Shown piece after piece: positions 11,759-58,464 of a stretch of 60,669 nt of DNA (positions within the stretch are counted from its first letter, which is position 1; each line of letters opens with the position of its first letter). Below the pieces are notes generated by a model. That model worked only from the letters and a program-made list of their open reading frames with translations. It searched no databases and was not told the origin of the DNA. This DNA comes from Gemmatimonadales bacterium (lineage in GTDB: Bacteria; Gemmatimonadota; Gemmatimonadetes; Gemmatimonadales; GWC2-71-9): the NCBI GenBank assembly GCA_038209515.1, contig JBBQXQ010000005.1:1-60669 (forward strand), given 5' to 3'. Both the position numbers and the translations under genes were made by a program.

Positions 11759-11760
11759 GC

Positions 11761-19358: not shown

Positions 19359-19392
19359 TCTCACTATAAAGTAGTATCATCGTCCCGTGCCA

Positions 19393-30384: not shown

Positions 30385-31695
30385 TCAGATAAGCGATGAC
30401 GCTGCCGCCACTCGCGCTTCGACCTGTTCCGCGGGCCACGTCAGCAGGGGCACCACTGGCTCGAGCGAGCGGCTCGGCGGACTCGACACAAAGATGCGCA
30501 GACGGCGAGCGCTCCGGTACAGCTCGTCCGCCACTCGGGGAAGTCCCAGGTGCCCGGCTCGACCGGCATCGGTCAGGCGTTCGATGGTCCCGCTCCGGGT
30601 ACGGAGAGGAAGGTTGACACCGAGCATCGCGGTCCGGGCCGGGAAGTCCAGCAGCACGTCGCCAGGCGCCAAACCGACCTGCTCGGCAATCGCATCCTCG
30701 ACCCGCTCGAGCAGATCAGGGTCGCTGGTCACCCAGGGCTGAACGTCTCCGGGGACTTCGCTCGCCGGCAGGTCCAGTGCGCGCTTGTGCAGGCGACGTG
30801 CCCGGATGCAGGCGGCGAGTCCGCTCTGGTCGCGCGCGAGGAGCAGCTCCATCAGCCCGTCGTCGGTGGCATCGGCGATGGCCTGCACCGTTACGGTTCC
30901 GCGCCGCACGGCGATGCGCACCGCCCGCTTGAACATGCAGGTTGCCGATCGAACGGCGTGGTGCCAGTAGACATTCCGGTACATCTGGTACTTGGCGAAC
31001 AGGAGCGACTCCAGTGCGCTCACACCTTTCTCCTGCACGCCGACCTCGAAATGCCCGGGCTCGACCTCGACCACCGTGAGTGACGAGAGCAGGCGGTCCA
31101 CGTCCACGGTTCCGTAGGGCACGCCGCACATCCGGGCGTCCCGGCTCAGATAATCGACCTTGTCGAGATCGATCGATCCGGAGATGAGTCCCTGGAGCGG
31201 ACTCCGGCTCGACCCGGTGATGAGGGCACCTATGATGCGAGGGAAATCGAGGCCACCGATCTGGATCAAACGCTCGCCCAACAGCCCTTGCGAGAGCTTG
31301 GTGACTCCTAGCGTCTCGTGCGACGGAAAGCCCGCCTCTTCCAGGGCATGGGAGAATGGATAGTGGCCGATGTCGTGCAGCAACGCGGCCATGCGGACTG
31401 CCAGGCACTCCTCCGCCGTCGCGGGGCCCAACTCGCCCAGCTCCTCGAGGGCGGCCAGTGCCCGCCGCGTCAGGTGATAAGCGCCGAGTGCGTGCTCGAA
31501 ACGCGTGTGGGTGGCGCCGGGATAGACGAGGAAGGAATGACCCACTTGACGAATGTAGCGAAGACGCTGGACGGCGGGCGTGTCGAGGGCAAGCAGGGCG
31601 GGGTGGTCGACCCGGATGTTGTCCCAGAGCGGATCGCGGATAATCTCGGAAAGGGCGGGAAAGGCGGGAAGGTCGGGAAGGTGGCGCGGGTTCAC
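30385..31695 (-). CDS. HD-domain phosphohydrolase (COG1078, dNTPase-like)
   Basis: IRDPLWDNIRV...QRLRYIRQVG...THTRFEHALGAYHL...LLHDIGHYPFSH is present. I chose the GTG at 31695. The ORF-track extension to 32118 reads through a repeat array and overlaps pckA. Confidence 0.8.
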   Translation of the reverse strand: MNPRHLPDLPAFPALSEIIRDPLWDNIRVDHPALLALDTPAVQRLRYIRQVGHSFLVYPGATHTRFEHALGAYHLTRRALAALEELGELGPATAEECLAVRMAALLHDIGHYPFSHALEEAGFPSHETLGVTKLSQGLLGERLIQIGGLDFPRIIGALITGSSRSPLQGLISGSIDLDKVDYLSRDARMCGVPYGTVDVDRLLSSLTVVEVEPGHFEVGVQEKGVSALESLLFAKYQMYRNVYWHHAVRSATCMFKRAVRIAVRRGTVTVQAIADATDDGLMELLLARDQSGLAACIRARRLHKRALDLPASEVPGDVQPWVTSDPDLLERVEDAIAEQVGLAPGDVLLDFPARTAMLGVNLPLRTRSGTIERLTDAGRAGHLGLPRVADELYRSARRLRIFVSSPPSRSLEPVVPLLTWPAEQVEARVAAASSLI

Positions 31696-31798
31696 CCCTT
31701 CGGCTTTTTTCTCGGATGCCGATCCCGGCCGCGTCTGGTGAGCTGTCAACTTTCCGCCTTTCCCGCCTTTCCCGTCCTTCCCGTCTTTCCCGTCCTTC
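31648..31798. repeat. Inverted pair of CGG-core nonamer arrays (4 + 5 units, about 65-nt spacer)
   Basis: The left arm is ggaaagggc gggaaaggc gggaaggtc gggaaggtg (31648-31684). The right arm is ctttccgcc tttcccgcc tttcccgtcc ttcccgtc tttcccgtcc (31750-31798), which abuts the pckA stop codon. Confidence 0.9.
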
Positions 31799-36510: not shown

Positions 36511-37752
36511 TTATTTCCTCCGAAGCCACATCGTCGGGTCCAGTGCGATCTGTTTGTCTCCCCTGATCTCGAAATGTAGATGCGGGCCGTAGTCCGAGTT
36601 CTGGCCGCCCACCGTCCCGATCACCTTACCCTTCGAGGTCGAGGCCCCCAGCTTGACATCGGCCGTCTCGAGGTGGGCATACACGGAATAGTATCCGTTG
36701 CCATGCTCCAGAACGATGGTGAGTCCGTAGGTTCCGAATTGTCCGACCAGCCGCACCTTGCCGGCTTCCACTGCCTTGACTGGCGTGCCGACTGGCGCCG
36801 CGATGCCGACGCCGTTCCACCGAATGACGCCCCCACTCGGAAGCGTGTCCCGCCCAAACCGGTAGACAATAGTTCCCTCGACCGGCCAGTCGAGCTTGCC
36901 CAGATCCGCCGTCGTGATGGAGCCGGGCGCACTGACTCCGCCGCGGAGCGCGCCGCGGGCCGCTTCATCCCGGCGGGCCCGCTCCAGCGAGGCCAGGAGT
37001 CCATTCAGCCGCGACTCGTCCTTTTGTAGCTCGGTGAGCCGCCGCTCCGTGTTTCGGGCCGAGCGCTGCAGGCTCTGCAGCTTACTGGCCCGCTCGGACG
37101 CCAGCGCCGAGTACTTGCTGGCCTCGGCCTCTCGCTCCTCCCGCCTCCGATCCAGCTCGCCCCGGACATTCAGGATGTTGTTCCGCTGCTGGACCACCCG
37201 GTTCCGCAGCTTCTCTACGTCGGTGACCAGCGAGCGGTCCTGCTCGCTGGTGAGGTAGAGATACTTATACCGGCTCAGGAGGTCGCCGAATGATTCGGCG
37301 GTCAGGAGGACCTGAAAGGTGTGGAGAGTGCCCCGCTTGTAGATGTCCACCAGCCTTCGCTGGAGGACCGCTCGCCGCTCGGCGAGATTGTCCTGGGCCA
37401 GGATCAGCTCGGCACTGGATCGGTCGAGCTGTGATGCCAGCCCCCCGATCTGCCGCTCGATCTCGTTCACAATCCGCTGAGTCGATTCCCGCTGCCGCTC
37501 GAGATTGCTCAGCTCGTCGTTGACATCATGCACCTGCCCCTGAAGCCGCTCGCGCTGCCGTTGGAGGCGATCCCGCTCCGCCCGGATTTCCTCGAGTCGC
37601 CGCCGACTCTCCTCGAGGTCGGTCTGCGCGTGGATTGGGGGGCAGAGAGCCATGCCGAGGAGAAACAGACGGAGAGGACGGAGATGACGGAAAGGACGTA
37701 ATAGAGACTGACACCTCTCCGTCTTCTCCGTCTTCTCCGTCCCCTTAAACAT
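36511..37752 (-). CDS. M23 peptidase with long coiled-coil (EnvC-like)
   Basis: About 250 aa of coiled coil precede an M23 domain with intact HLHFE and GYYSVYAHL. The start is ambiguous: ATG 37752 overlaps the ftsX stop, and ATG 37653 lies downstream of a repeat hairpin. Confidence 0.85.
   Translation of the reverse strand: MFKGTEKTEKTERCQSLLRPFRHLRPLRLFLLGMALCPPIHAQTDLEESRRRLEEIRAERDRLQRQRERLQGQVHDVNDELSNLERQRESTQRIVNEIERQIGGLASQLDRSSAELILAQDNLAERRAVLQRRLVDIYKRGTLHTFQVLLTAESFGDLLSRYKYLYLTSEQDRSLVTDVEKLRNRVVQQRNNILNVRGELDRRREEREAEASKYSALASERASKLQSLQRSARNTERRLTELQKDESRLNGLLASLERARRDEAARGALRGGVSAPGSITTADLGKLDWPVEGTIVYRFGRDTLPSGGVIRWNGVGIAAPVGTPVKAVEAGKVRLVGQFGTYGLTIVLEHGNGYYSVYAHLETADVKLGASTSKGKVIGTVGGQNSDYGPHLHFEIRGDKQIALDPTMWLRRK
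37657..37744. repeat. Inverted pair of GACGGAGAA-type nonamer arrays
   Basis: The left arm is gaggagaaaca gacggagag gacggagat gacggaaag gacg (37657-37698). A 15-nt spacer separates it from the right arm cctctccgtc ttctccgtc ttctccgtc ccc (37714-37744). Confidence 0.9.
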
Positions 37753-39300: not shown

Positions 39301-39316
39301 GTCGTGGAATAAAGAA

Positions 39317-39378
39317 GGTCGAGGGTCTAGGGTCTAGGGTCTAGGATGCGTTTTGACCCTCGACCCTCGACCCTAGAC
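39317..39378. repeat. Inverted pair of GGGTCTA/GGGTCGA heptamer arrays
   Basis: The sequence is ggtcgagggtctagggtctagggtctagg - atgcgtttt - gaccctcgaccctcgaccctagac. The right arm contains the stop codon of the metC-like gene, and the left arm ends 17 nt before the ftsE start. Confidence 0.9.
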
Positions 39379-40539
39379 TCCCTTTTTTCCCTCAAGCGCC
39401 TGACTCAAATCCCCGATGATGTCCGCTGCGTCCTCGATGCCACAGCTCAGACGCAAAAAGCCGTCCGGGATGCCGATCTTGAGTCGGCCCTCCGGGCCGA
39501 TGCTCTTGTGTGACGTGAGGCGAGGCTCCGAGATGAGCGTCTCCACGCCGGCGAGGCTCGGTGCATGGGTGATCAACTTGAGTCGTTTGAGCAGCCGCTC
39601 CGTCGCCTTAACGCCGCCCTTGAGCTCGAGCCCCACCATCCCCCCGAACCCGTTGAGCGCGGCCTTGGCGTGTGCGTGGTCCGGATGCGACGGCAATCCG
39701 GGGTAATGCACCCTGGTAATGCCGGGGTGTTGCTCCGCCCACTGCGCGACAGCCAGGCCGTTGGCGTTGTGACGCTCCATGCGCACCGCGAGCGTGCGCA
39801 TCCCCCGGTCGATGAGCCAGGCCGCGTGGGGATCGATGGCCTGGCCCCAGAGCCGCATGAGGCGGTTCACCTCCTCCACAAATGCACTCGAGCCTGCCAC
39901 CACACCGGCGATCACGTCGCTGTGCCCGTTGAGATACTTGGTGGCGCTGGTGATGACGACGTCCGCACCGTGCTCCAGGGGCCGGTAGTTGATCGGGCTG
40001 GCGAAAGTGGCATCCACCAGCAGCGCCAGGCCGTGCTCCTTGGCGAGGTACGAGATCGGGCCCAGGTCGATGACCCGCATGAGCGGGTTGGTGGGCGTCT
40101 CTACGAAGAGGGCCCGGGTGGCCTTGCGCATCGACTTGCGCCAATGCCGCACCTGGTCCGGGCTCACATAGGTGACCTCGATGCCGAAGCGGGCCAACTC
40201 CTCGTCGAAGAGCCGCTGGGTACCGCCATAGATCCAGGTGCTCGCGATCAGATGGTCGCCGGGGCGGAGCATGGCAAGGTGAGCAAGTGCGGTTGCTCCC
40301 ATGCCGCTGGCCACGAAGATCGCGTCCTCCGCACCCTCGAGCAGCGCGTACTTCCGGGCCAGCTCGACCTGGTTCGGGTTGTTGCCGTAGCGGCTATAGA
40401 GCACCTCCTCGTCCGATCCGATCGGGTTGACGAAGGTGCTGCTCTGGAGCAGGGCAGGGGCGATCGGTGCCCAGTCAGGCCGGCGGTGCGGTGTGCCGTG
40501 GATGGCGGTGGTGGAGAACCCGAACCCGGACCGGCTCAT
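39373..40539 (-). CDS. Cys/Met-metabolism PLP enzyme (cystathionine gamma-synthase / beta-lyase family)
   Basis: The PLP-lysine motif is SATKYLNGHSDVIAG, and the typical trans-sulfuration family pattern is present throughout. Confidence 0.85.
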   Translation of the reverse strand: MSRSGFGFSTTAIHGTPHRRPDWAPIAPALLQSSTFVNPIGSDEEVLYSRYGNNPNQVELARKYALLEGAEDAIFVASGMGATALAHLAMLRPGDHLIASTWIYGGTQRLFDEELARFGIEVTYVSPDQVRHWRKSMRKATRALFVETPTNPLMRVIDLGPISYLAKEHGLALLVDATFASPINYRPLEHGADVVITSATKYLNGHSDVIAGVVAGSSAFVEEVNRLMRLWGQAIDPHAAWLIDRGMRTLAVRMERHNANGLAVAQWAEQHPGITRVHYPGLPSHPDHAHAKAALNGFGGMVGLELKGGVKATERLLKRLKLITHAPSLAGVETLISEPRLTSHKSIGPEGRLKIGIPDGFLRLSCGIEDAADIIGDLSQALEGKKGV

Positions 40540-41072: not shown

Positions 41073-41971
41073 CGCGGCTCCGCGCCCTGCGCCGGGATGA
41101 TGATCTGCACTTGCGCGCCCGGGAAATACGCCAGGTTCTCGCTCAGAGGGATGTCCTCATCCCAGGGTGGGATGATGGACAACCGGGCAGTGCCGCTGCG
41201 GATGGAGATCTTCCCCTCCCATTGGTCGAGAAATCTCTTGATGAACGCGAGGCCCTGGCCCCGACCCGGATCGCGGAAGCGACTCACCCCTTGAATGAGG
41301 GCCGCCTCCAGCGCCGCGCCGTCCCCCCAGCGCTCGCCGAAGCGTTTGGCGTGGGTGCTCTCGAGCGAGCGGCGGAATCCCACACCCCCGTCGCTCACTG
41401 CGATGACCACGACTCTGCGACCCAGCCGGCGGCGGAAGGTGTACGCCTGGACCGCAACCCAGCCGCTGGTCCCCGCGTGCTCCACAATATTCTGGCAGGC
41501 CTCTGAAAGCGCCATACTGAAGCGAAGCGTGGCCTTCATTTCGAGACCCAGCTCCCCGTGTAAAATCCGGGAGGCTCCCTCGGAGATCTTATCGACCACG
41601 CCGTGGACGTCCTCGGATGCCCGTACCGGCGTCACGTCGAGCAGCACGTCGGACGGCCCGGTGGTCGTGGTGCGCGGGACCTTGCCGTGGAGCTCGAACA
41701 GCTCCGCGGCGTGATGAAAGAACCCGGCGCGGGCCCAGTACCGCTTCACCTCGTCGCTGGTGGGCACCGTCAGCAACGGCTTCTCCCGCTTCGCTTCCGC
41801 CAGCGCCTGCCCGGCAGTCAGGATGCCAATGAGACCATACGGGGACGCCCACTGGGTGCTCCGCGCGTCCAGCAGCACCTTCTCCTCCGGGGGCCACTCG
41901 GCGAATCCGCCGGCAAAGGCGTCGAAGGTGCGGTCCTCGAAGTGCGCAGGAACCTCGATGACCCGGGTCAC
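41069..41971 (-). CDS. GHKL-superfamily ATPase (SpoIIAB/RsbW/HK-like) with novel N-terminal domain
   Basis: The N-box is EACQNIVEHA, G1 is VSDGGVGF and G2 is GRGQGLAF. There is no DHp/H-box. The N-terminal region of about 130 aa is STAS-like (VLLDARSTQWASPYGLIGIL). Confidence 0.65.
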   Translation of the reverse strand: MTRVIEVPAHFEDRTFDAFAGGFAEWPPEEKVLLDARSTQWASPYGLIGILTAGQALAEAKREKPLLTVPTSDEVKRYWARAGFFHHAAELFELHGKVPRTTTTGPSDVLLDVTPVRASEDVHGVVDKISEGASRILHGELGLEMKATLRFSMALSEACQNIVEHAGTSGWVAVQAYTFRRRLGRRVVVIAVSDGGVGFRRSLESTHAKRFGERWGDGAALEAALIQGVSRFRDPGRGQGLAFIKRFLDQWEGKISIRSGTARLSIIPPWDEDIPLSENLAYFPGAQVQIIIPAQGAEPR

Positions 41972-42972
41972 GGGGTCACCAGCTCGCCGCGGAGATGGCG
42001 GGCCAACCCGCTCGCGCCCCGAAAGCCGGCATTCCTTGCGGCGAGCGCCGTGGCATGGCGCAGCGCGGCCTCGATTGAGTCCCCGGCCAGCAGCCGGGCA
42101 AAGGCCGCGGCCCCGAAGACGTCACCGCATCCCGTCGGGTCGAGGGTTTCGACGTTGGTAGCGGGGATGAGCGCGGTGCGGACGGTCGGCCGGTCGGCCG
42201 GTCGGGCGGTCGGTGCATGCAAGCGATCCACCCCCGACCGACTGACCGACTGACCGACTGACCGACTGTCCGCCAGACCATCAAACCCCGGCGCCGCGAC
42301 GTAGGCGACCCCCTTGGAACCCAGCGTCACCGTGAGCAGCGAAACGCCGGCGCCCAGGGCGTCGGCAGCCAACGTCAACGGGTCGGGCGTGAGCTGCTGC
42401 ATCTCATCTTCGTTCAGCTGAACCATGTCGAAGCAGCCGAACCAGGCCGGCGCGTTCGGCAGTGGTTGCAGCACCCGCATGCCGTCCTGCTGCATACCTA
42501 GGAAGAGACTGTGGAGATCGGCGTAGACTGGTCCGGCAAACCCTTGCCGTAGAGCCTGCGCGGTCCCCAGGCAGAGCTCGAATCCCGAGATGAAGTTCAG
42601 GTAGATGGCGTCCAGGTCCCGCACCATTGGTCCCAGCTCGGGCCAAGTCCACCCGGGGACACCGCCGGCCATTCGTTCGCACCGTCGCTCGGTGGACTGG
42701 TAGTGCAGCACCACGCGGTTGTTGGGGGCCGTGACCTCGACGCAACGCGCCCCCCGCGCCACCCGGGACAAGCCGCGCAGGAGATCCTGCGCCTCCGCGC
42801 TCAGGTCGCGGCCCACTTTGATCAGCGGAACCATCTCCCAGTCCGGCGTCAGGCTCGCGTCCAGTCCCGCGAGGGCGTACGCGATGCCTCCCCACTCCTC
42901 CACCGGAGGGGCGAGTTGGTCGCGGCCATAAATGAGGTCCCAGACCAAAGAACCGAGGATGCCGATCCGCAT
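41968..42972 (-). CDS. PfkB-family sugar kinase carrying an in-frame 96-nt repeat insertion
   Basis: The ribokinase-like pattern includes the C-terminal motif DPTGCGDVFGAAFA. An extra segment of about 32 aa (ADSRSVGQSVSRSGVDRLHAPTARPADRPTVR) is encoded by the repeat. Confidence 0.8.
   Translation of the reverse strand: MRIGILGSLVWDLIYGRDQLAPPVEEWGGIAYALAGLDASLTPDWEMVPLIKVGRDLSAEAQDLLRGLSRVARGARCVEVTAPNNRVVLHYQSTERRCERMAGGVPGWTWPELGPMVRDLDAIYLNFISGFELCLGTAQALRQGFAGPVYADLHSLFLGMQQDGMRVLQPLPNAPAWFGCFDMVQLNEDEMQQLTPDPLTLAADALGAGVSLLTVTLGSKGVAYVAAPGFDGLADSRSVGQSVSRSGVDRLHAPTARPADRPTVRTALIPATNVETLDPTGCGDVFGAAAFARLLAGDSIEAALRHATALAARNAGFRGASGLARHLRGELVTP
42178..42273. repeat. Inverted pair of octamer arrays (CGGTCGGC x4 / TGACCGAC x4) inside the PfkB CDS
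   Basis: The sequence is gcggacggtcggccggtcggccggtcgggcggtcggtg - catgcaagcgatccacc - cccgaccgactgaccgactgaccgactgaccgactgtccgc. The length is 96 nt, or 32 codons. Confidence 0.92.
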
Positions 42973-42973
42973 G

Positions 42974-43993
42974 CTACGAGATTGCCTGCCCCGCTGCCCA
43001 CCCACCCGGAGGGTTCCCGCCCCGCTGCCCCGCTGTATCCAGAAATACCTTGGCTGCGCCGTAGACCCCCGCGGTGCCCGTGAGCTCGCACGGCACGATC
43101 CGGCAGACGCTCACCGCCGGCTTGAACGCCCGCCGAGCCACCTCGCGCCGAAGCGGCACGAACAGGTGGTCGCCGGCCAGGGTCACACCTCCGCAGATGA
43201 CTACCGCTTCGGGATTGAAGACGTTCACCAGGTTGGCGATGGCCGCACCAAGGAACTTGGCTGTGTCGTTCACCACCTCGAGCGCCAGGTCGTCACCGTC
43301 GTGGGCGGCCTGGTAGACCGTCTGCGCCGTGATCTTCCCCAAGTCGCCCCCGACGTACGAGGCCAGCCGGCTGACCGCACCCGCCTGGATCTCCTCACAA
43401 GCTCGGAGCGCGATGTTCGGTCCGGAGGCATAGGCCTCCAGGCAGCCGTAGTTGCCGCACTTGCAGCGCCGTCCCTCGGTATCGATGGTGGTGTGGCCAA
43501 TCTCGCCCGCGCAGTCGGAGGCGCCATGGAACAGCTTGCCGTCGATGATGAGCCCGCCGCCGATCCCGGTGCCGATGGTGATACCGATGGCGATCTTCGT
43601 GCCCCGGGCGGCCCCCATCCACCATTCCCCCAGAACGGCGCAGTTGGCGTCGTTGTCCAGCGCCGCGGGCAACGACAGGCGCTCGTGAATGATCCGGCGC
43701 AGCGGCAGGTTCACCCAGCCGAGATTGGGTGTGAGCAACACGATCCCACTCTTGGTATCCAGCGGTCCCGGGGCCCCCACCCCGATGCCGATGATCTCCG
43801 CGCCGGGCACCTCACGCTTAGTCTGCTCGATGGTTCGCTTGGCCAACGTGATGAGGCGGTCGAGCACGTCGCTCTGACCGGCCTCGGCGTGGGTCGGCTC
43901 GCTTCCGAGCGCATGCAGCGCAGACCCGTCCTCGGCGACACTGCCGACGACGAGATTAGTGCCTCCGATGTCAATCCCAAGTACGAATCGCAC
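42974..43993 (-). CDS. ROK-family glucokinase
   Basis: LGIDIGGTN is present, along with the ROK Cys motif CKCGNYGCLEAY and GIGGGLI. Confidence 0.85.
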   Translation of the reverse strand: MRFVLGIDIGGTNLVVGSVAEDGSALHALGSEPTHAEAGQSDVLDRLITLAKRTIEQTKREVPGAEIIGIGVGAPGPLDTKSGIVLLTPNLGWVNLPLRRIIHERLSLPAALDNDANCAVLGEWWMGAARGTKIAIGITIGTGIGGGLIIDGKLFHGASDCAGEIGHTTIDTEGRRCKCGNYGCLEAYASGPNIALRACEEIQAGAVSRLASYVGGDLGKITAQTVYQAAHDGDDLALEVVNDTAKFLGAAIANLVNVFNPEAVVICGGVTLAGDHLFVPLRREVARRAFKPAVSVCRIVPCELTGTAGVYGAAKVFLDTAGQRGGNPPGGWAAGQAIS

Positions 43994-45005
43994 GCGGTTC
44001 CTCCGAGCCGATGATCCTGGCCAGTGCTGCCGCCACGTCGCCTACCGACAGATCGCGCATACATCGGTGATGCCCGAGTGGACAGGTCGGTGGGCCGTGT
44101 TTCGAGCACGGGCGGCACGGCAGCTCCTCGTGCCCCAGCACGACGTCACCGCCGCGGCGTGGCCCAAAGCCGAACTCGGGCACCGTCGGTCCGAACAGCG
44201 CGACGACCGGGGTTCCCACCGCCGTCGCCAGATGAAGCGGCGCCGAGTCGTTGGTGATCAGAACCGCGGCGCGCCGAATGAGCGCTGCCGACCCACGAAG
44301 GCTCAGCGCGCCGGCGGCGCTCACGGCCCGCCCGCGAGCGGCCTGGACGATCGCATCGGCCAGCTGGGCGTCTTCCGCACCGCCCACGATGACCGCGGTC
44401 CGGTCGAGCCCCGCGGCCAGCTCGGCGTAATAGGGCCAGCGCTTGGTGGCCCAGACCGAGCCAGGAGCGATGGCCACGAAGTCGGGCCCGACCCCGTGCG
44501 AGGCGAGCCAGGCGTCGGCCGCCGCGAGATCGGTGGGCGCGAGCCCGATGCTCACCGGCGGGGCAACATCTCCCGGCCTCATACCGGCGAGCGCGAGAAG
44601 TCGCTCGACCTCATGGCCCTGCCGGGGACGGGCAACCCGGCTGGTGTAGGTGACAGCGGCGGCGCTGTCGGCGAAGCCGATTCGCTCCCTCGCACCGGAC
44701 CAGAGGGCGAGCAGCGCCGACCGGAGTGACTGATGCGGCAAGTACACCCGGTCATAACCCCTGGCACGCAACTCCATGCCGAGCCGCCGGAACGGTTTCC
44801 AGCCCCGGCCGAGGCCGTGCTTGTCGTAGCGCACCACATCGCCCACCGCCGGGTGATGGTCCAGCAGGCTTGCAGCCGCCGGTGTGGTCACCACGTCAAC
44901 CGGGCCGTGCCGGTCGGCGAGCACCGAAAGCAGCGGGGTACTGAGGATGACGTCGCCGAGGAAGGCGGTCTGGATTACCAGAGTGGACGGCTGCCCACCC
45001 ATCAT
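43971..45005 (-). CDS. Glycosyltransferase family 9 (LPS heptosyltransferase-like)
   Basis: VIQTAFLGDVILSTPLL and the C-terminal motif NDSAPLHLA.A.G.P.VALFGPT are present. The ATG overlaps the lepA stop by 1 nt (TGATG). Confidence 0.8.
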   Translation of the reverse strand: MMGGQPSTLVIQTAFLGDVILSTPLLSVLADRHGPVDVVTTPAAASLLDHHPAVGDVVRYDKHGLGRGWKPFRRLGMELRARGYDRVYLPHQSLRSALLALWSGARERIGFADSAAAVTYTSRVARPRQGHEVERLLALAGMRPGDVAPPVSIGLAPTDLAAADAWLASHGVGPDFVAIAPGSVWATKRWPYYAELAAGLDRTAVIVGGAEDAQLADAIVQAARGRAVSAAGALSLRGSAALIRRAAVLITNDSAPLHLATAVGTPVVALFGPTVPEFGFGPRRGGDVVLGHEELPCRPCSKHGPPTCPLGHHRCMRDLSVGDVAAALARIIGSEEPRAIRTWD

Positions 45006-46804: not shown

Positions 46805-46816
46805 GGGGGAATATAA

Positions 46817-46958
46817 GGCGGTCGGGCGGACGGGCGGTCAGCCGGTCAGATTGTGTTATTCGGAGTTGGGTCAGGCGGTATTATGTTCGGCGGTGCCCCA
46901 CACAACGACTGTCCGGTCGTGGGAGCGACCGACCGCCCGTCCGCCTGTCCGCCTGACC
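46817..46958. repeat. Cluster of GGCGG(A/T)C(R)G-type octamer repeats in both orientations
   Basis: ggcggtcgggcggacgggcggtcagccggtcag occupies 46817-46849, ggtcaggcgg occupies 46869-46878, and cgaccgaccgcccgtccgcctgtccgcctgacc occupies 46926-46958. A 14-nt exact complementary core pairs 46826-46839 with 46930-46943. Confidence 0.88.
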
Positions 46959-47823: not shown

Positions 47824-47854
47824 CCTTCCCCGTCCTCTCCGTCTTCTCCGTCGC
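47824..47854 (+). repeat. Pyrimidine-strand nonamer micro-array (complement of the GACGGAGAA type)
   Basis: ccttccccgtc ctctccgtc ttctccgtc gc fills the 33-nt gap between the convergent stops at 47822 and 47856. Confidence 0.85.
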
Positions 47855-50433: not shown

Positions 50434-52211
50434 TTGGATTTCTTCACCCCTGGGTGTTGGCTGGCCTGGCCGCTGCCGCAATCCCAATCCTCCTCCACCT
50501 GCTGGCCCGGCGTGAGCCCCCGACCGTCGTTTTTCCCGCCGTGCGCTACCTCGTCACCACGACACGGGAGCACCAGCGCCGCCTCAAGCTTCAGAACTGG
50601 TTGCTCCTCCTGCTCAGAACGTTGCTGATCGCCACGGTGGTGCTCGCGGCTGCCGGTCCCACGATGCCTCTCACCGGGGTACCGGGACATGCGCCGAGCG
50701 CTCTGGTCCTCATCGTGGACAACTCACCCAGCAGTGGGGCCGTGGTGGGAGGCGCCCCGCAGCTTCGGCAGCTCGTGGCCACCGCTCGACAGGTGCTCGA
50801 CCGGGCGACGCCGGAGGACGCGCTCTGGCTGGTGACGGCTGATGGCATCCCGCGGCGCGGCGATCGGGTTACTCTGGTCGACTTGGTCGGTCAACTCACC
50901 GTCTCCCCCAGGCGCCTGGACCTCGGTGTGGCGGTGACGCTCGCGGGGGAGGTCCTTGCGTCGGAGTCCCGGCCAGGTGAGATCGTGCTGCTCACCGATC
51001 TTCAGGCGAGCGCGCTTTCGCCCGCAGAGCGCTCGGTACCGCTGCTGGTGGGGCGACCCGCGGCGGTGCCCCCGGCCAACGTGGGGATCGGGGGCGTCGA
51101 GACCGGTTCGCAGCCGTGGACTTCCGATGGTGGTCGTATCACCGTCTCACTGGTTGGCGACTCGGGTGCTACGGTGCCGGTCAGTGCGCGTTTGGGGAAC
51201 CGTCCTCCGCGCCAGGTCCTCGGGCGAGCCGGTGCCGCGACGACTGTCAGCCTGCCGGCGACGCCAAGTGGATGGTGGACCCTCACCGCAGAGCTCGATC
51301 CTGACGAGTTCCGTCTGGACGACCGCCGGGTTGCCGCCGTGCGGGTGGCTCCCCTGGCGCGGGTCGGCTGGGACTCGGCGAGCCGTTATCTCGCCGCAGC
51401 GTCGGAGGTACTCGCCGCCAATCACCGAATCCAGCGGGGCCAGGAAGTCTCCTTGGGCCGCCTCGGCCGGGGAACGTCAGTCGTGCAGCCACCGGATGAT
51501 CCTGCGGGACTGGGCGCGCTGAACCGGGCCCTGGCGGCGCGCGGTGTTGGATGGAGCTACGGCAACCCCGCCACCGGATCGGGGTATAGCGACAGCGGCA
51601 CCGTGGTGGGCCGCCACCGGGTCATCCGGCGCTACGTGCTTCAATCCGGTGGGAGTCGCACCGGGGTACTGGCCACAGTCAACGGAGCACCCTGGATTGT
51701 CCGCGGCGGCAACGTGGTCCTGCTCGGCAGCCGGCTCGACCCAGCGTGGACCGATCTGCCGGTGTCGGCCGGCTTCATGCCGTTCATGGACGTGCTGCTC
51801 AACCGGCTGGCTCGCGGCGAGATCGCGCTGGATCACGGCGCGCCGGGCGACCCAATCGCCCTCCCCGATCTGGTGACCGAGGTGCGGCAGGGCGATCGGC
51901 AATGGAGAGTAGAAGGTGGCGGACTCTTCCGCCCCACCGACCCGGGCGTGTTCTACCTGGTGGCGGGTCGAGATACCGTTGGGGCCATCAGCGTGAATCC
52001 GGATGCCCGGGAGTCGCGGCTCGCTCGCGCCTCCGACGGCCAGGCACGGCAGCTCTGGAAAGGCGCGCGGGTGGTGCCGCTGGCCCAAGCGAGTGAGGTG
52101 GCATTCTCCTCGTCTTCCCGGGGTGACCTGCGGGGTCCACTGCTCTGGACGGCGCTGGCGGTCGGCATGATCGAAGTGGGTCTCGCGAGCGCCTGGAGGC
52201 GCCGGCAGTGA
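50430..52211 (+). CDS. BatA-N-terminal-domain / VWA-like membrane protein
   Basis: MIGFLHPWVLAGLAAAAIPILLHLL is the aerotolerance-regulator N-terminal motif. A MIDAS-like IVDNSPS and a C-terminal TM segment are present. ATGA overlaps DUF58 upstream and GTGA overlaps mfd downstream. Confidence 0.7.
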   Translation: MIGFLHPWVLAGLAAAAIPILLHLLARREPPTVVFPAVRYLVTTTREHQRRLKLQNWLLLLLRTLLIATVVLAAAGPTMPLTGVPGHAPSALVLIVDNSPSSGAVVGGAPQLRQLVATARQVLDRATPEDALWLVTADGIPRRGDRVTLVDLVGQLTVSPRRLDLGVAVTLAGEVLASESRPGEIVLLTDLQASALSPAERSVPLLVGRPAAVPPANVGIGGVETGSQPWTSDGGRITVSLVGDSGATVPVSARLGNRPPRQVLGRAGAATTVSLPATPSGWWTLTAELDPDEFRLDDRRVAAVRVAPLARVGWDSASRYLAAASEVLAANHRIQRGQEVSLGRLGRGTSVVQPPDDPAGLGALNRALAARGVGWSYGNPATGSGYSDSGTVVGRHRVIRRYVLQSGGSRTGVLATVNGAPWIVRGGNVVLLGSRLDPAWTDLPVSAGFMPFMDVLLNRLARGEIALDHGAPGDPIALPDLVTEVRQGDRQWRVEGGGLFRPTDPGVFYLVAGRDTVGAISVNPDARESRLARASDGQARQLWKGARVVPLAQASEVAFSSSSRGDLRGPLLWTALAVGMIEVGLASAWRRRQ

Positions 52212-55200
52212 GCCTGAAGCCGGTAGTCGATGCGTTCGAGCGCGCACCCGCCGTGCGCGACCTGGGCGATCGTCTTCCAGGCCGTGGCGGCACGCTCCGG
52301 CTGGGAGGTCTTCCCGGGTCGAGCGGGGCGGCGTTGGTGGCGTGGCTGGCCCGGACCTATCCCCAGCGCCAGCTGACCGTGATCGCCCCGTCGCCGGCAG
52401 ATGCCGAGCGGTGGCTCTCGGACTTGGCGCAGCTCACCGAGGTAGCTACCGCCCTCTATCCTCAACGAGAAGCGTTGGGCGAGGACGAGCCCCATTACGA
52501 GATCGCCGGAGAGCGAGCGGAAACGATTCAGGCGCTGCTCCAGGGCCGGTTACGGATCCTGGTGACCACCGCGCGCGCCACCGCGGAACGAACGCTCCTG
52601 CCTGCCGCACTCCAGCGGCTGAGTCTCCGGTTAGCCGTCGGGGACAGCCGCCCGCCCGCCGAGGTCGCCCGCTCGCTCGAGGCCATGGGATACCAGCGGG
52701 TGCCGACCGTCAGCGAGGTCGCCGAGTTCAGTGTGCGCGGCGGAATCCTGGACCTGTACGGCTTCGGCATGGCGGCACCAGCCCGACTGGAATGGTGGGG
52801 GGACGAGATCACCTCGCTCCGCGGTTTCGATCTGACTACGCAGCGATCGCTCCAGGAACTGAGCGACATCACGGTGTTGCCTATCAACACCCAGGCGGTA
52901 CGAGAAGAGGCGGACTGGCGGACAGAACTTACCGCCGTACCGCCGTACCGCCGTACACTGCTCGACCTTCTCCCGCCCGACACACTGGTCGTCGAAGAAA
53001 CCCCCGGACCTGACTTCGACGAGGTCACCCGGGCCTGGACCGAGGCGGCGCACCATCTCGAGGTGGCCCGGCGTCTGGGTGAGGACGTACCCAGCAGGGA
53101 GAGCATCTTCCAGCCGCCTGGCGAGTGGCGCGAGCGACTCGAGCAATTTCCCCGCCTCCTGCTGCGCGACGATACGGTGGACCTGCAGTTCGGCTTCTTC
53201 CCGCCCGAGCGCATCGACCGGGATCTCAACCGCCTGCGCTCCCTGCTGGGTCCCGGCCTGCCGACCCTGATTCTCTGCGACAACGAGGGGCAGCTCGAGC
53301 GCCTGGAGGAGCTGCTCGAATCGCCGCTGTATCCCGGGCAGGGTCGCGCTCGGGGCAACGGTGCTACGCTCGCCATCGGGGCTCTCGAGGGCGGCTTCGT
53401 CATGCCCTCGCTCCGGGTGCTCACTGACCACGAGATCTTCCGCCGGGCGCGCCGGTTGCGCCGGCCGCGCCGGTACCGTGAGGCCGCGCCTTCAGGAGCC
53501 ACCGGCGCTCTGAGTCTGGGCGACTACGTCGTGCACCTCGAGCATGGCATCGGCATCTACCGCGGAATCGAGACGATCACCGCGGGCGAATCCACCCTGG
53601 AGGTTGCCATCGTCGAGTACGAAGGGGGCGACCGGCTCAACGTGCCGCTCTACCGTCTCGACCAGCTCGAGCGCTATCGCGCCTCCGGTGAAGATGGAGA
53701 CCGTCCGCCACCGCGGATCCACCGGCTCGGTGGGTCGACCTGGCAGCGGGTTCGGGAGAAGACCCGACAGGCCATCAAGCGGATGGCGGCTGAGCTACTC
53801 GATCTCTACGCCCGGAGGAGGGTCACCGGCGGCTACGCCTTTCCACCCGACACCAAGTGGCAGCGCGAGCTGGAGTCCAGCTTTCTCTACGAGGACACTC
53901 CCGACCAGCGAAAGGCCACCGAGGAGGTCAAGCGGGATATGGAGAAGCCGCTTCCCATGGACCGCCTGCTGGTCGGCGATGTCGGATATGGCAAGACCGA
54001 GATCGCGGTGCGCGCGGCGTTCAAGGCGGTCCAAGGCGGGAAGCAGGTCGCTGTCCTGGTGCCCACGACGATTCTGGCCGAGCAGCACGGCCGGACCTTC
54101 ATCGAGCGCCTGGCCGACTTCCCGGTCAAGATCGAAGTGCTCTCCCGGTTCCGAACCCAGAAGGAGCAAAAGGCGGCGCTCACCCGCCTGGCCGACGGAC
54201 AGACGGACATCGTGATCGCGACCCACCGGCTCCTGTCCAAGGACGTCGTGTTCAAGGACCTCGGCCTGCTGGTGGTAGACGAGGAGCACCGATTCGGGGT
54301 GAAGCACAAGGAGCGGCTCAAGGCGCTGCGACTTTCGGTTGACGTGCTCACGCTCACCGCCACGCCGATTCCCCGGACCCTCCACCTGTCGCTGGCAGGT
54401 CTCCGGGATCTGACCCTGATCGAGACCGCGCCGCGCGACCGATCTCCGATCCTGACTTTCGTTGAGCCGTGGGACGATGCTCTGCTGGAGGAGGCGTTCG
54501 CCCGGGAGATCGACCGTGGCGGGCAGGTCTTCATGGTCCACAACCGCATCGAGACGATCGACACCATCGCCGAACGGGTCCGGACACTGGCGCCTCGGGC
54601 GCGGGTAGGGGTGGCCCACGGGCAGATGGCGGCGGAGGAGCTCGAAAAGGTGATGCGGTGCTTCGTCGCGGGTGAGGTGGATATCCTCGTCTCCACCATG
54701 ATCGTGGAATCGGGGCTCGATGTCGCCAACGCGAACACTATGGTGGTGCACGACGCTCACCGCTTCGGGCTGGCGCAGCTGTACCAGCTGCGGGGACGAG
54801 TCGGGCGGAGTCACCGCCGGGCCTACTGCTACCTGCTGGTCCCCGACGCCATCGACGCGGAAGCCGAGGAACGTCTCAAGGTGCTGGAGCATCATACTGA
54901 TCTGGGCTCAGGCTACCGGATTGCACTGCGGGATCTCGAGCTCCGGGGGGCGGGCAATCTGTTGGGAGCGGAGCAGTCGGGTCATGCTCAGGCGGTCGGG
55001 TTCGACCTCTACCTCCGCTGGCTGGAGGAGACCGTCCGGTCGTTGCGGGGCCAGGGCACGGTGGAGCAGCCCGCGCCGCCCGATGTGGTGCTCGACCACC
55101 CCGCCCACCTTCCGGACGGCTACGTCCCGGACGACGACGTCAAGCTCGACCTGTACCGCCGACTGGCGCGGTCTGCCTCATCCAACGAAATTGACGGGCT

Positions 55201-55507
55201 CCGCGACGAGTTGCGGGAACGCTTCGGCCCCTTGCCGGTCACCGTCGAGACGCTGCTCGATATGACGCGGCTCCGCGTCATGGGGGCGGCCCTTGGGCTG
55301 CAGAATGTGCTGGTGCGGGGAGACGAAGCGCGTCTCACCTTCCGTCCCGGGACCACGCCCAGGCTCGCCGGTCTCACGTCTGCCTTGGACGATGTGCAGT
55401 TGGCTGCGGAAGTCCGGCGCACTGTTCCGTTGTCGCTCCGGCTGATGCGGCTGGGCGGAGAGCCGATTGTGCCTGCGTTGGTGAGAGCATTGCGCAAGGC
55501 TTCATGA
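52208..55507 (+). CDS. mfd: Transcription-repair coupling factor
   Basis: The CarD-like domain (GDYVVHLEHGIG), helicase motifs DVGYGKTE, DEEHRFG and QLRGRVGR, and the TRCF C-domain are present. The length is 1099 aa. Confidence 0.95.
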   Translation: MSLKPVVDAFERAPAVRDLGDRLPGRGGTLRLGGLPGSSGAALVAWLARTYPQRQLTVIAPSPADAERWLSDLAQLTEVATALYPQREALGEDEPHYEIAGERAETIQALLQGRLRILVTTARATAERTLLPAALQRLSLRLAVGDSRPPAEVARSLEAMGYQRVPTVSEVAEFSVRGGILDLYGFGMAAPARLEWWGDEITSLRGFDLTTQRSLQELSDITVLPINTQAVREEADWRTELTAVPPYRRTLLDLLPPDTLVVEETPGPDFDEVTRAWTEAAHHLEVARRLGEDVPSRESIFQPPGEWRERLEQFPRLLLRDDTVDLQFGFFPPERIDRDLNRLRSLLGPGLPTLILCDNEGQLERLEELLESPLYPGQGRARGNGATLAIGALEGGFVMPSLRVLTDHEIFRRARRLRRPRRYREAAPSGATGALSLGDYVVHLEHGIGIYRGIETITAGESTLEVAIVEYEGGDRLNVPLYRLDQLERYRASGEDGDRPPPRIHRLGGSTWQRVREKTRQAIKRMAAELLDLYARRRVTGGYAFPPDTKWQRELESSFLYEDTPDQRKATEEVKRDMEKPLPMDRLLVGDVGYGKTEIAVRAAFKAVQGGKQVAVLVPTTILAEQHGRTFIERLADFPVKIEVLSRFRTQKEQKAALTRLADGQTDIVIATHRLLSKDVVFKDLGLLVVDEEHRFGVKHKERLKALRLSVDVLTLTATPIPRTLHLSLAGLRDLTLIETAPRDRSPILTFVEPWDDALLEEAFAREIDRGGQVFMVHNRIETIDTIAERVRTLAPRARVGVAHGQMAAEELEKVMRCFVAGEVDILVSTMIVESGLDVANANTMVVHDAHRFGLAQLYQLRGRVGRSHRRAYCYLLVPDAIDAEAEERLKVLEHHTDLGSGYRIALRDLELRGAGNLLGAEQSGHAQAVGFDLYLRWLEETVRSLRGQGTVEQPAPPDVVLDHPAHLPDGYVPDDDVKLDLYRRLARSASSNEIDGLRDELRERFGPLPVTVETLLDMTRLRVMGAALGLQNVLVRGDEARLTFRPGTTPRLAGLTSALDDVQLAAEVRRTVPLSLRLMRLGGEPIVPALVRALRKAS

Positions 55508-58463: not shown

Positions 58464-58464
58464 A

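What the first reader, a model, noticed from the sequence alone, without database searches (positions are those of the whole stretch)
42178..42273. A 96-nt palindromic octamer-repeat element is inserted in-frame inside a PfkB sugar-kinase gene
Seen directly: the PfkB-family CDS (41968-42972, minus strand) reads straight through an inverted pair of four-unit octamer arrays, CGGTCGGC-type and TGACCGAC-type. The element is exactly 96 nt, or 32 codons. It adds the segment ADSRSVGQSVSRSGVDRLHAPTARPADRPTVR shortly before the conserved DPTGCGD anion-hole motif, where ribokinase-like proteins normally have a short linker. The same unit family recurs non-coding at 46817-46958. Established knowledge: Rickettsia palindromic elements are the known precedent for repeat elements that insert in-frame into ORFs. 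Non-triplet repeats inside LPS genes drive phase variation in Haemophilus and Neisseria. Inference: this is either a tolerated loop insertion of a mobile or expanding palindrome, or a contingency locus. Gain or loss of one 8-nt unit would frameshift a kinase that sits in an operon with a GT9 heptosyltransferase, so it could switch LPS-core synthesis.
Basis: partly seen in the sequence, partly recalled or inferred. Interest (0 to 1): 0.75.

Follow-up and report, generated by a model that had tools for sequence, protein, structure and literature searches.

The report
In-frame repeat hairpin inside kinase gene
A 96-base self-complementary stretch built from 8-base repeats sits in frame in a surface loop of a sugar-kinase gene of a Gemmatimonadales bacterium. 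It is one of many such hairpin repeats in these genomes, which normally sit just after genes, and it looks like tolerated "junk" rather than a genetic switch.

Summary
Window 42178-42273 is an inverted pair of about 4.5-unit octamer arrays. It folds into a -80 kcal/mol hairpin and is read in frame (32 codons) in a PfkB/ribokinase-fold gene.

In 159 orthologous Gemmatimonadales loci, the linker at this exact β-turn ranges from 0 to 198 nt. Long versions always contain a strong hairpin, but the sequences are unrelated between species: different 8-nt units, a REP-like palindrome, or other palindromes. Canonical ribokinases and short orthologues have only a turn here. AlphaFold2 gives an unstructured, low-confidence loop.

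The element belongs to a lineage-wide class of tandem-unit hairpins:
- Units are 7-9 nt.
- The G-rich arm is always 5' (66 of 66).
- 81% begin within a few bases of a stop codon.
- Unit types are shared within a genome and swapped between genomes only 6.5% diverged.

Best reading: this is a tolerated, translated copy of a fast-turning-over hairpin repeat. Slippage and arm-to-arm template switching shape it, and selection keeps its length a multiple of three.

Phase variation is not supported. Copy number is fixed among close relatives, and frameshifts appear only in probable nanopore MAGs. The LPS-switch idea has no support, because the kinase is not HldA-like.

I rate it a new variant of a known kind (intragenic REP/RPE-like elements).

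The parts
41968..42972 (-). PfkB/ribokinase-fold kinase CDS (334 aa from the ATG at 42972). Its stop overlaps the start of the next gene.
   Evidence: ORF list. Pfam PF00294 at 41.1 bits against a cut-off of 25.8. Foldseek matches ribokinases at E = 3e-10. 120 homologues of 82-100% identity.
42178..42273 (-). The 96-nt in-frame hairpin element (32 codons, ADSRSV...PTVR).
   Evidence: Sequence and translation. RNA fold -80.1 kcal/mol, z = -4.7.
42236..42272 (-). 5' arm in the mRNA sense: G-rich octamer array (GGTCAGTC units; GACCGACT on the + strand, 4.6 copies).
   Evidence: TRF, the repeat finder family D1.
42214..42235 (-). Loop and spacer between the two arms.
   Evidence: the repeat finder pair I1, 20 nt between arms; fold.
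42174..42213 (-). 3' arm in the mRNA sense: C-rich octamer array (GNCCGACC units; CGGTCGGC on the + strand, 4.9 copies).
   Evidence: TRF, the repeat finder family D2.
42184..42285 (-). Whole variable linker (102 nt, 34 codons) between the conserved YVAAPG and VRTA strands. Orthologues have 0-198 nt here.
   Evidence: tblastn anchors in 159 loci; alignments.
46816..46954 (.). Non-coding hairpin of similar GGNCGG-type octamer units, in the divergent lepA / EamA intergenic region, with a 75-91 nt loop.
39301..39388 (.). 88-nt heptamer-unit (GGTCTAG / GACCCTC) hairpin flanked by an A-tract and a T-tract. It supplies the stop codon of the Cys/Met-metabolism gene. It is absent in L161 and L162, where that gene overlaps ftsE.
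37667..37745 (.). Nonamer-unit (GACGGAGAG) hairpin starting at the ftsX stop codon. At the same site, L162 has a GGGGCAGC-type hairpin and L161 has none.
31647..31798 (.). Nonamer-unit (GGGAAAGGC) hairpin abutting the stop codon of the PEP carboxykinase gene.
52909..52956 (+). Second in-frame case in the window: a small G-first hairpin (GGCGGACTGGCGGACAG ... TACCGCCG x3.4) inside the 1099-aa mfd-like ORF, translated as EADWRTELTAVPPYRRT.
   Evidence: TRF, fold, ORF translation.

Best explanation
The 96-nt element is a translated copy of a class of hairpin repeats that pervades Gemmatimonadales genomes. I call these 'tandem-unit hairpins'. Each has two inverted arrays of 3-6 copies of a 7-9-nt unit, with the G-rich array always on the 5' side.

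These hairpins normally start within a few bases of a stop codon. Here one occupies a β-turn of a ribokinase-fold kinase that tolerates almost any length, so it persists as a disordered, hydrophilic surface loop.

**Shown**
- The site is permissive and hypervariable.
- The hairpin is kept, but its sequence is replaced between species and even between near-identical genomes.
- Units are homogenised within an arm more than between arms.
- Unit types are shared by unlinked hairpins of the same genome.
- Total length stays a multiple of three.

**Inferred mechanism**
- Replication slippage homogenises and resizes each array.
- Intrastrand template switching between the arms (quasipalindrome correction) restores and extends complementarity.
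- Occasional copying or conversion from other hairpins of the same genome, or import of alleles by recombination, replaces the unit type.
- Purifying selection on the kinase removes every variant that breaks the frame or introduces a stop.

The insert itself probably has no protein-level function. Any function of the class (mRNA 3'-end protection, or termination without a U-tract) is exercised at gene ends, not here.
For: **Permissive site**
- The linker is 0-198 nt in 159 loci.
- It is also variable in relatives of 38-53% identity.
- Ribokinase structures have a short turn here.
- AlphaFold2 gives pLDDT below 50 and no secondary structure for residues 232-262.

**Hairpin kept, sequence replaced**
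- Long linkers fold with z-scores of -4 to -9.
- They use units such as GGTCAGTC, GGACAGGC, GGACGGTC, GGCGGAAC, GGGGAAGC, GGGGCAGC and GGTACGGC, a REP-like palindrome, or other palindromes.
- The window, L081 and L001 are 96-97% identical in the protein core yet carry different units.
- A second clade, whose neighbours have short turns, gained hairpins independently.

**The wider class**
- I found 68 tandem-unit hairpins in 1.25 Mb.
- Polarity is 66:0 in favour of the G-rich arm being 5'.
- 43 of 53 non-PfkB hairpins start within -25 to +60 nt of a stop codon.
- At most 3 of 55 non-PfkB hairpins lie inside a CDS.

**Sharing within genomes**
- 12 of 42 within-locus hairpin pairs share a unit, against 160 of 2236 between-locus pairs (permutation p = 4e-4).
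- The PfkB-site unit equals that of another hairpin in L001, L007 and L111.

**Fast gain, loss and swap**
- Seen against L161 (about 92% nt identity) and L162 (93.5%).

**Arm-wise homogenisation and in-frame deletions**
- The window's 5' unit is GGTCAGTC and its 3' unit is GGCCGACC. L102 has 10 units in one arm and 2 in the other.
- L165 is L081 with a central 45-nt deletion, and L164 has a 9-nt deletion.

**Literature**
- Template switching is known to homogenise and expand inverted-repeat arms (PMC5941160, PMC13100816).
Against: - No mutational process was observed directly. Slippage and template switching are inferred from patterns.
- The 96 nt are identical between the window and L162/L163 although the flanks differ by 6.5%. 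If sites were independent, 0.935^96 = 0.0016. This could mean constraint or recent transfer rather than neutrality. Concerted evolution reduces the number of independent sites, which softens the argument.
- Sense-strand folds are somewhat more often the more stable (26 against 11), which could hint at RNA-level selection.
- The strict G-first polarity is not explained by the proposed mechanism.
- Why this one intragenic site is hit so often, beyond being permissive, is not shown.
Confidence: 0.6

Rival explanations
1. It is a genuinely mobile REP/MITE-like element. A transposase (for example a RAYT or IS200/IS605-type Y1 enzyme) copies genome-specific hairpins into preferred targets such as existing hairpins or small palindromes. 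The PfkB loop is one such target, and insertions there survive.
For: - Unit types are shared among unlinked hairpins of one genome.
- Recent presence/absence differences occur between genomes only 6.5-8% diverged.
- A different, REP-like palindrome (GGAGTCACCCTGAGCGGAGCGAAGGGG) occupies the same PfkB site in 7 loci, and a relative of it is intergenic in the window at 20893-20947.
- L095 looks like a REP-like element nested in remnants of a tandem hairpin.
- REPs inside ORFs, and REPs supplying stop codons, are documented (PMC3733652).
Against: - Neither the 60.7-kb window nor the 1.25 Mb surveyed contains a second copy of the same hairpin. Outside L162-L164 only unit types recur, not whole elements.
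- No target-site duplication is visible at the fresh 88-nt insertion.
- At least five different unit types coexist in one 60-kb window.
- No transposase was looked for or found.
Confidence: 0.2
2. The hairpin is a selected cis-acting structure in the polycistronic mRNA or in the DNA. Possible roles are an RNase processing or stability determinant, a translation pause between the two halves of the kinase, or a protein-binding cruciform. In this reading its complementarity is kept by selection.
For: - A hairpin is kept at the same site across many species while its sequence covaries.
- The 96 nt are perfectly conserved against diverged flanks in L162 and L163.
- There is a mild excess of more stable sense-strand folds, 26 against 11.
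- Most members of the class sit just after stop codons, like mRNA 3'-end stabilisers.
Against: - Many orthologues, interleaved in the tree, lack any hairpin and have 0-60-nt linkers.
- G·U against A·C usage is nearly symmetric (130 against 104).
- There is no U-tract and no Rfam family. The only hits are sub-threshold matches to generic miRNA-precursor hairpins.
- An RNA 3' end inside a CDS would give a non-stop transcript.
Confidence: 0.13
3. It is a contingency (phase-variation) locus. Gain or loss of one 8-nt unit switches the kinase off and on.
For: - The octamer unit is not a multiple of three, so single-unit slippage would shift the frame (sequence).
- Three orthologous loci (L030, L065, L070) and one predicted protein (P0176) are out of frame within the element.
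Against: - Unit number is fixed in the window, L162 and L163, and 12 further close homologues have the same length.
- 156 of 159 loci are in frame.
- The three frameshifts are confined to 'MFD' MAGs, which I believe are nanopore assemblies: 3 of 5 hairpin-bearing loci there, against 0 of 37 elsewhere.
- The arrays are short (4-5 imperfect units).
- The same architecture is mostly non-coding.
- The kinase has no demonstrated surface or LPS role.
Confidence: 0.04
4. The insert is a protein-level adaptation: a selected disordered loop near the active site. The DNA palindrome would then be incidental.
For: - The loop lies 14 residues before the DPTGCGD motif.
- The loop is always hydrophilic, rich in Gly, Arg, Pro, Ser, Thr and Asp.
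Against: - The peptide sequence is not conserved at all, even at 96-97% core identity.
- The peptides are simply translations of G-rich and C-rich repeats.
- Length ranges from 0 to 66 residues.
- Nucleotide-level complementarity cannot be explained by protein selection.
Confidence: 0.03

Closest known systems
Rickettsia palindromic elements (RPEs; Ogata et al. 2000, as summarised in PMC10969869 and PMC3733652)
   Same: Both are palindromic repeat DNA inserted in frame in ordinary metabolic genes. Both are translated and sit where the fold tolerates an extra segment.
   Different: - RPEs are about 100-150-bp families with a conserved consensus and a conserved encoded peptide.
- This element is built from locus-specific 8-nt tandem units and has no conserved peptide.
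- Different, unrelated hairpins occupy the same site in different species.
REP/BIME elements (GTAG- and CGTC-tagged palindromic repeats; Di Nocera et al. 2013, PMC3733652)
   Same: - Both are short G+C-rich hairpins located mainly just downstream of ORFs.
- Both sometimes provide the stop codon.
- Both are occasionally found entirely inside ORFs.
- Both are species-specific in sequence.
- Hairpins inside proteins are thought to be tolerated rather than functional.
   Different: - REPs are single 20-40-nt palindromes of one or a few consensus sequences, present in tens to hundreds of copies and linked to RAYT transposases.
- Here the arms are tandem arrays of 7-9-nt units and many unit types coexist per genome.
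- No identical copies were seen, and no RAYT link was tested.
- A true REP-like palindrome does coexist in these genomes (window 20893-20947). It occupies the PfkB site in 7 other loci.
Simple-sequence-repeat contingency loci of Haemophilus and Neisseria (for example tetranucleotide repeats in LPS genes)
   Same: Both have a tandem repeat, with a unit length not divisible by three, inside a reading frame.
   Different: - The array here is short and imperfect and is paired with an inverted copy.
- No copy-number polymorphism is seen among close relatives.
- No trustworthy OFF alleles are seen.
Quasipalindrome template-switch mutagenesis, and perfect inverted repeats maintained in Proteobacteria (PMC5941160; PMC13100816 for yeast)
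   Same: It provides a known mutational route by which the arms of an inverted repeat are homogenised and extended without selection. That is the behaviour seen here.
   Different: This is a process, not an element family. Tandem-unit architecture and strict G-first polarity have not, to my knowledge, been described for it.

Membership tests
PfkB / ribokinase-like kinase (the host gene) | Match to Pfam PF00294 above the gathering score | tested here: met
   41.1 bits against a cut-off of 25.8, E = 1.7e-10, although only residues 268-319 match.
PfkB / ribokinase-like kinase (the host gene) | Ribokinase fold with the DxxGxGD anion-hole / catalytic-Asp motif | tested here: met
   Foldseek top hits are all ribokinase-family members (E = 3e-10, TM 0.47-0.57) on a model of moderate quality (pLDDT 59.6, pTM 0.67). 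DPTGCGD is invariant in the 38-sequence alignment (D278-D284 of the invariant columns).
   No rfaE or HldA model appears among the NCBIfam hits at E <= 0.01. The best hits are weak C-terminal matches to ribokinase and tagatose kinase, far below cut-off.
Rickettsia-palindromic-element-like in-frame repeats | Palindromic repeat DNA inserted in frame in a functional ORF at a structurally tolerant site | tested here: met
   32 codons read without a stop. Hairpin z = -4.7. The loop has pLDDT below 50 and lies between two strands. Short-turn orthologues exist.
Rickettsia-palindromic-element-like in-frame repeats | Member of a dispersed family with a conserved consensus sequence and a conserved encoded peptide | tested here: not met
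   No second copy exists in the window or in the 1.25 Mb of related DNA, apart from the orthologous site in L162-L164. The peptides at the site are unrelated between species.
REP / BIME (RAYT-associated palindromes) | Single 20-40-nt imperfect palindrome with a terminal GTAG or CGTC tag, in many near-identical copies | tested here: not met
   The arms are 31-40-nt tandem arrays, and at least five unit types occur in 60 kb. A CGTC occurs at the stem base (GACCGTCC), but it is part of the repeat unit. No near-identical copies were found.
REP / BIME (RAYT-associated palindromes) | Preferential location just downstream of ORFs | tested here: met
   This holds for the class: 43 of 53 non-PfkB tandem hairpins start within -25 to +60 nt of a stop codon. 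The PfkB element itself is the exception.
REP / BIME (RAYT-associated palindromes) | Association with a RAYT (Y1 transposase) gene in the genome | not testable with these tools
   Only 60 kb of this genome, and flanks of up to 21 kb from relatives, were available. No whole-genome gene inventory could be made.
SSR contingency locus | Repeat with a unit not divisible by three inside the ORF | tested here: met
   8-nt units, 4.6 and 4.9 copies.
SSR contingency locus | Repeat-number polymorphism among close relatives that gives ON and OFF frames | tested here: not met
   The element is identical in the window, L162 and L163. Twelve more homologues are 334 aa. 156 of 159 loci are in frame, and the 3 exceptions are all MFD (probably nanopore) MAGs. 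Read-level heterogeneity could not be examined.
Intrinsic (Rho-independent) terminator | G+C-rich hairpin followed by a U-tract | tested here: not met
   The terminator scan finds nothing at 42174-42272, and no T-run follows either arm.
Any curated RNA family (Rfam 15) | Score at or above the gathering threshold | tested here: not met
   The best hit is 31.6 bits to mir-341, whose threshold is 90. This is generic long-hairpin similarity only.

The most novel reading that the evidence does not exclude
Gemmatimonadales may have a dedicated, so far undescribed process that writes and rewrites hairpins at fixed genomic addresses: stop codons, operon junctions, and a few permissive protein loops such as this one.

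The process would use genome-specific 7-9-nt units and would always place the G-rich array 5'. That polarity is what would result if G-rich repeats were added to both 3' ends of a break. It would also result if fold-back synthesis happened only on nascent G-rich arrays.

The PfkB insert would then be a by-product of an active repeat-generating system, not of ordinary slippage or a known REP/RAYT system.
Probability: 0.2. Interest if true: 0.85.

Novelty: new variant of a known kind. Interest (0 to 1): 0.6.

Why it matters
Palindromic repeats translated inside genes are known mainly from Rickettsia, with scattered REP cases elsewhere. This one differs in several ways:

- **One address, many hairpins.** The same protein loop is occupied by many unrelated hairpins across a whole bacterial order. 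This gives a natural series of 'before, after and replaced' states at one address.
- **Rates can be measured.** Turnover, growth and decay of hairpin repeats can be measured against a conserved coding background.
- **Mutation versus selection.** The series allows a test of whether inter-arm complementarity is kept by mutation (template switching) or by selection.
- **Unexplained regularities.** The class shows absolute G-first polarity, starts within a few bases of stop codons, and shares units within genomes. None of this is explained, and together it points to a specific mechanism worth finding.
- **Practical consequences.** These elements create hypervariable peptide segments and indels in otherwise conserved genes. 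They seem to provoke frameshift errors in long-read assemblies, which matters for annotating soil MAGs.

Tried and rejected
- **Strand asymmetry of G·U pairs.** I used this to decide between an RNA-level and a DNA-level structure. The result is not decisive: 26 against 11 more stable sense folds, and G·U counts of 130 against 104. The loci are also phylogenetically non-independent.
- **Rfam.** Only sub-threshold matches to eukaryotic miRNA precursors, which means generic hairpins. Rejected as meaningless.
- **Terminator and promoter scan.** Nothing at the element.
- **Target-site duplications.** I looked at the fresh 88-nt insertion (39301-39388, compared with L161 and L162). None is recognisable.
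- **Other copies.** I searched all fetched DNA for copies of the window's arms. They occur only at the orthologous site in L162-L164.
- **In-frame hairpins at the lepA/GT9 junction.** I tested whether these are also translated (L161 has a 78-nt in-frame insert after the ATG). Across 63 loci the frame is not consistently kept, and many units contain stop codons. That site is mostly intergenic, with a shifting start codon.
- **Literature searches.** I searched for Gemmatimonas plus REP, for the REP-like sequence, and for STRR-type heptamer hairpins. No description of this class was found.
- **First tree script.** This is a rough tree, so 'independent gain' rests on clade neighbours with short turns rather than on a formal reconstruction.
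- **Crude gene map.** The GC3-based gene map misses genes. It was used only as a filter in the hairpin census.
Full report
**1. What is in the sequence**

The window has 65.8% G+C. On the minus strand, an ORF from 42972 (ATG) to 41968 encodes a 334-aa protein.

- Pfam recognises it as PfkB: PF00294 at 41.1 bits, cut-off 25.8, C-terminal part only.
- Its AlphaFold2 model matches ribokinase-family structures: Foldseek E = 3e-10, TM 0.47-0.57, with TM0415-type inositol kinases among the closest.

Inside the ORF, Tandem Repeats Finder reports two octamer arrays: CGGTCGGC x4.9 at 42174-42213 and GACCGACT x4.6 at 42236-42272.

- The arrays are inverted copies of each other: 31-nt arms, 81% complementary, 20 nt apart.
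- Together they fold at -80.1 kcal/mol on the mRNA strand. This gives z = -4.7, with 0 of 200 shuffles folding as well.

Its octamer units are similar but not identical.

**2. It is an insertion into a short turn**

- Arabidopsis ribokinase 6ilr has about 8 residues between the strand ending GSKGSA and the strand IQQSIIPA. The window protein has 40.
- I fetched 80 species-representative genomes and 80 metagenome contigs that encode orthologues. All are Gemmatimonadales or Gemmatimonadota, at 56-93% identity.
- I anchored every locus on the conserved YVAAPG and VRTA strands. The linker between them ranges continuously from 0 to 198 nt in 159 loci, and is 102 nt in the window.
- Forms with 0-18 nt (L158, L160, L151, L074, L018) are the plain β-turn.
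- The region is also length-variable in relatives of 38-53% identity.
- AlphaFold2 gives residues 232-262 pLDDT below 50 and no secondary structure, between strands 222-226 and 265-269. The whole model is only of moderate quality (pLDDT 59.6, pTM 0.67).

**3. The same site holds different hairpins**

Every long linker folds into a strong hairpin, with z-scores typically -4 to -9. The sequences, however, are unrelated.

- Octamer units include GGTCAGTC (window), GGACAGGC (L081), GGACGGTC (L101, a perfect 26-bp stem), GGCGGAAC (L111, perfect), GGGGAAGC (L001, L002), GGGGCAGC (L007) and GGTACGGC (L092).
- Nonamer units occur in L094 and L106.
- Long non-repetitive palindromes occur in L013 and L015.
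- A REP-like palindrome, GGAGTCACCCTGAGCGGAGCGAAGGGG, occurs in seven loci. A relative of this palindrome is intergenic in the window at 20893-20947.
- The window, L081 and L001 are 96-97% identical in the protein core yet carry three different unit types.
- Hairpin-bearing and hairpin-free orthologues are interleaved in a rough tree. A second, more distant clade, whose neighbours have 3-18-nt turns, also carries hairpins.

I conclude that the site has been filled more than once and that its content turns over much faster than the gene.

**4. It belongs to a class**

I scanned all 1.25 Mb of fetched Gemmatimonadales DNA for hairpins with arms of at least 20 nt and at least 78% complementarity. 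This found 162 hairpins.

- 68 are tandem-unit hairpins, with the same period in both arms. The periods are 8 nt (40 hairpins), 7 nt (21) and 9 nt (7).
- All 66 that have a G/C skew carry the G-rich arm on the 5' side. By symmetry this holds on both strands.
- Non-tandem hairpins show the same tendency, 75 to 14.
- Outside the PfkB site, at most 3 of 55 lie inside a CDS by a crude ORF/GC3 test.
- 43 of 53 begin within -25 to +60 nt of the stop codon of a long ORF, mostly 0-10 nt after it.

The window itself has four more:

- 31647-31798, after the PEP carboxykinase gene.
- 37667-37745, after ftsX.
- 39301-39388. This one contains the stop codon of the Cys/Met-metabolism gene.
- 46816-46954, in the divergent intergenic region between lepA and the EamA gene.

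These are supported. Lone G-rich arrays follow stop codons at 11743-11788 and 58464-58502.

**5. Dynamics**

Two syntenic relatives allow direct comparison: L161 (about 92% nt identity) and L162 (93.5%).

- The 88-nt hairpin at 39301-39388 is absent from both. In them the two genes overlap (GTGA).
- The hairpin after ftsX is GACGGAGAG-type in the window, GGGGCAGC-type in L162 and absent in L161.
- The lepA/GT9 junction is empty in the window. It holds a GGTGAGCG-type hairpin in L162 and a GGCGGAAAG-type, 78-nt in-frame hairpin in L161.
- Across 63 loci that junction ranges from 4 to 154 nt and carries many unit types.
- The position after the ftsX stop carries hairpins of different units in at least 13 species.

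Unit types are shared by unlinked hairpins of one genome far more often than between genomes: 12 of 42 pairs against 160 of 2236, permutation p = 4e-4. In L001, L007 and L111 the PfkB-site unit is the unit of another hairpin nearby.

Within an element, units are more alike within an arm than between arms. The window has GGTCAGTC against GGCCGACC. Arm copy numbers can differ strongly, as in L102 with 10 against 2. Deletions are central and in frame: L165 is L081 minus 45 nt, and L164 lacks 9 nt.

**6. Mechanism**

These patterns are what is expected from three processes acting together:

- replication slippage within each array;
- template switching between the arms of a quasipalindrome, a process known to homogenise and extend inverted repeats (PMC5941160, PMC13100816);
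- occasional replacement from other hairpins of the genome, or by recombination with other strains.

In the kinase gene, selection adds two filters: length must be a multiple of three, and no stop may appear in any phase of the unit.

The strict G-first polarity is not explained. Three possibilities are fold-back synthesis on nascent G-rich arrays, avoidance of exposed C-rich RNA (Rho loading), and repeat addition to both 3' ends of a break. All three are speculation.

**7. Rivals**

*A selected RNA or DNA structure.*
- In favour: the hairpin persists at the site, and the window and L162/L163 are 100% identical over the 96 nt while their flanks differ by 6.5% (0.935^96 = 0.0016 if sites were independent).
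- Against: many orthologues lack any hairpin; G·U usage is nearly symmetric between strands (130 against 104); there is no U-tract; and no Rfam family matches.

*Phase variation.*
- An 8-nt unit would shift the frame if it slipped.
- But copy number is fixed among the closest relatives, and 156 of 159 loci are in frame.
- The three out-of-frame loci are all 'MFD' MAGs. From my own knowledge these are nanopore assemblies. They are 3 of the 5 hairpin-bearing MFD loci, against 0 of 37 others.
- One further out-of-frame predicted protein (P0176) is of unknown origin.
- Read-level data were not available.

*A protein-level role.* This is excluded by the complete lack of conservation of the peptide.

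*A true mobile REP/MITE.* This remains possible (0.2), but no identical copies and no target-site duplications were seen.

**8. The LPS idea**

- The gene order lepA-GT9-ROK-PfkB is conserved.
- The GT9 protein scores just below the heptosyltransferase II cut-off, 132.4 against 134.6.
- The kinase, however, hits no HldA/RfaE model, and its nearest folds are ribokinases and inositol kinases.
- Its substrate is unknown, and nothing ties the insert to regulation.

**9. Comparison and verdict**

In-frame palindromic repeats are known: Rickettsia RPEs, and intragenic REPs, which can also supply stop codons (PMC3733652, PMC10969869). This element works like them, as tolerated selfish or mutational DNA in a permissive loop.

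What seems new:
- the tandem-unit architecture with many unit types per genome;
- the absolute G-first polarity;
- recurrent occupancy of fixed addresses, with rapid replacement.

I found no description of this in the searchable literature.

I rate it a new variant of a known kind, with interest 0.6. The 'tolerated expanding palindrome' reading is supported. The 'contingency locus / LPS switch' reading is not.

Noticed in passing
All fetched Gemmatimonadales DNA (window plus L001-L165, 1.25 Mb): Every tandem-unit hairpin with a G/C skew (66 of 66) has its G-rich arm 5' and its C-rich arm 3'. Non-tandem hairpins show 75:14. The polarity is independent of strand and is unexplained.
   Followed up: partly
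window 52909-52956 (+), inside the 1099-aa mfd-like ORF 52208-55507: This is a second in-frame case in the same window. GGCGGACTGGCGGACAG is followed by TACCGCCG x3.4, forming a small G-first hairpin translated as EADWRTELTAVPPYRRT. I did not check whether it is an insertion relative to other Mfd proteins.
   Followed up: no
window 39301-39388: This 88-nt heptamer-unit hairpin has an A-tract on one side and a T-tract on the other, so it looks like a bidirectional terminator. It sits between a Cys/Met-metabolism gene and ftsE. It provides that gene's stop codon (TAG within the unit GGTCTAG) and alters its last residues. L161 and L162 lack it and have the two genes overlapping. No target-site duplication is visible.
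   Followed up: yes
window 42990-43040 (-), C-terminal tail of the ROK kinase gene: The last ~15 codons of the ROK gene are a GGGGCAGC-type array. Relatives differ here by 18-nt (L161) and 31-nt (L162) indels, so the C-terminal tail and the stop position change between close genomes.
   Followed up: partly
L161 7923-8000; L162 2904-3007; 63 loci at the lepA-stop / GT9-start junction (window 44983-45005): This junction is another recurrent hairpin site. It spans 4-154 nt and carries many unit types, including an A+T-rich one (GACAATT in L049). In L161 the 78-nt hairpin is in frame directly after the GT9 ATG. In other loci the frame is not kept, so the start codon presumably moves.
   Followed up: partly
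window 37667-37745 and the orthologous position in at least 13 other loci (for example L003 9391, L007 11204, L019 7269, L023 9284): A hairpin starts right at the ftsX stop codon (…CATGTGTAG|hairpin) in many species, each with a different unit. The address is conserved but the sequence is not.
   Followed up: partly
window 20893-20947: This is a REP-like palindrome, CTGAGCGAAGCGAAGGATCC / GGATCCTTCACTGCGTTCAG. The same family (GTCACCCTGAGCGGAGCGAAGGGG) sits inside the PfkB loop in L006, L008, L065, L088, L095, L100 and L103, where it is translated as ...VTLSEAKGP...
   Followed up: partly
L030, L065, L070 (PfkB linker): The only out-of-frame PfkB alleles are in MFD MAGs, which are probably nanopore assemblies, and all lie inside the hairpin. 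These hairpins may be systematic indel-error sites for long-read consensus, or the alleles may be real pseudogenes.
   Followed up: no
window 11743-11788, 58464-58502, 23826-23851, 47825-47852, 19295-19448: Lone tandem arrays (GGAGCTG x6.9, AGAAGGCGG x4.3, CTTCCCCG x3.2, CTTCTCCGT x3.1, GGCGGGAAA x3.9) have no clear inverted partner. They sit directly after stop codons or in 5' regions. They may be half-hairpins or precursors.
   Followed up: no
window 42178-42273 compared with L162 5682-5777 and L163: The 96-nt element is 100% identical in three independent assemblies whose flanking coding DNA differs by about 6.5%, with substitutions 3 nt and 22 nt outside the element.
   Followed up: partly
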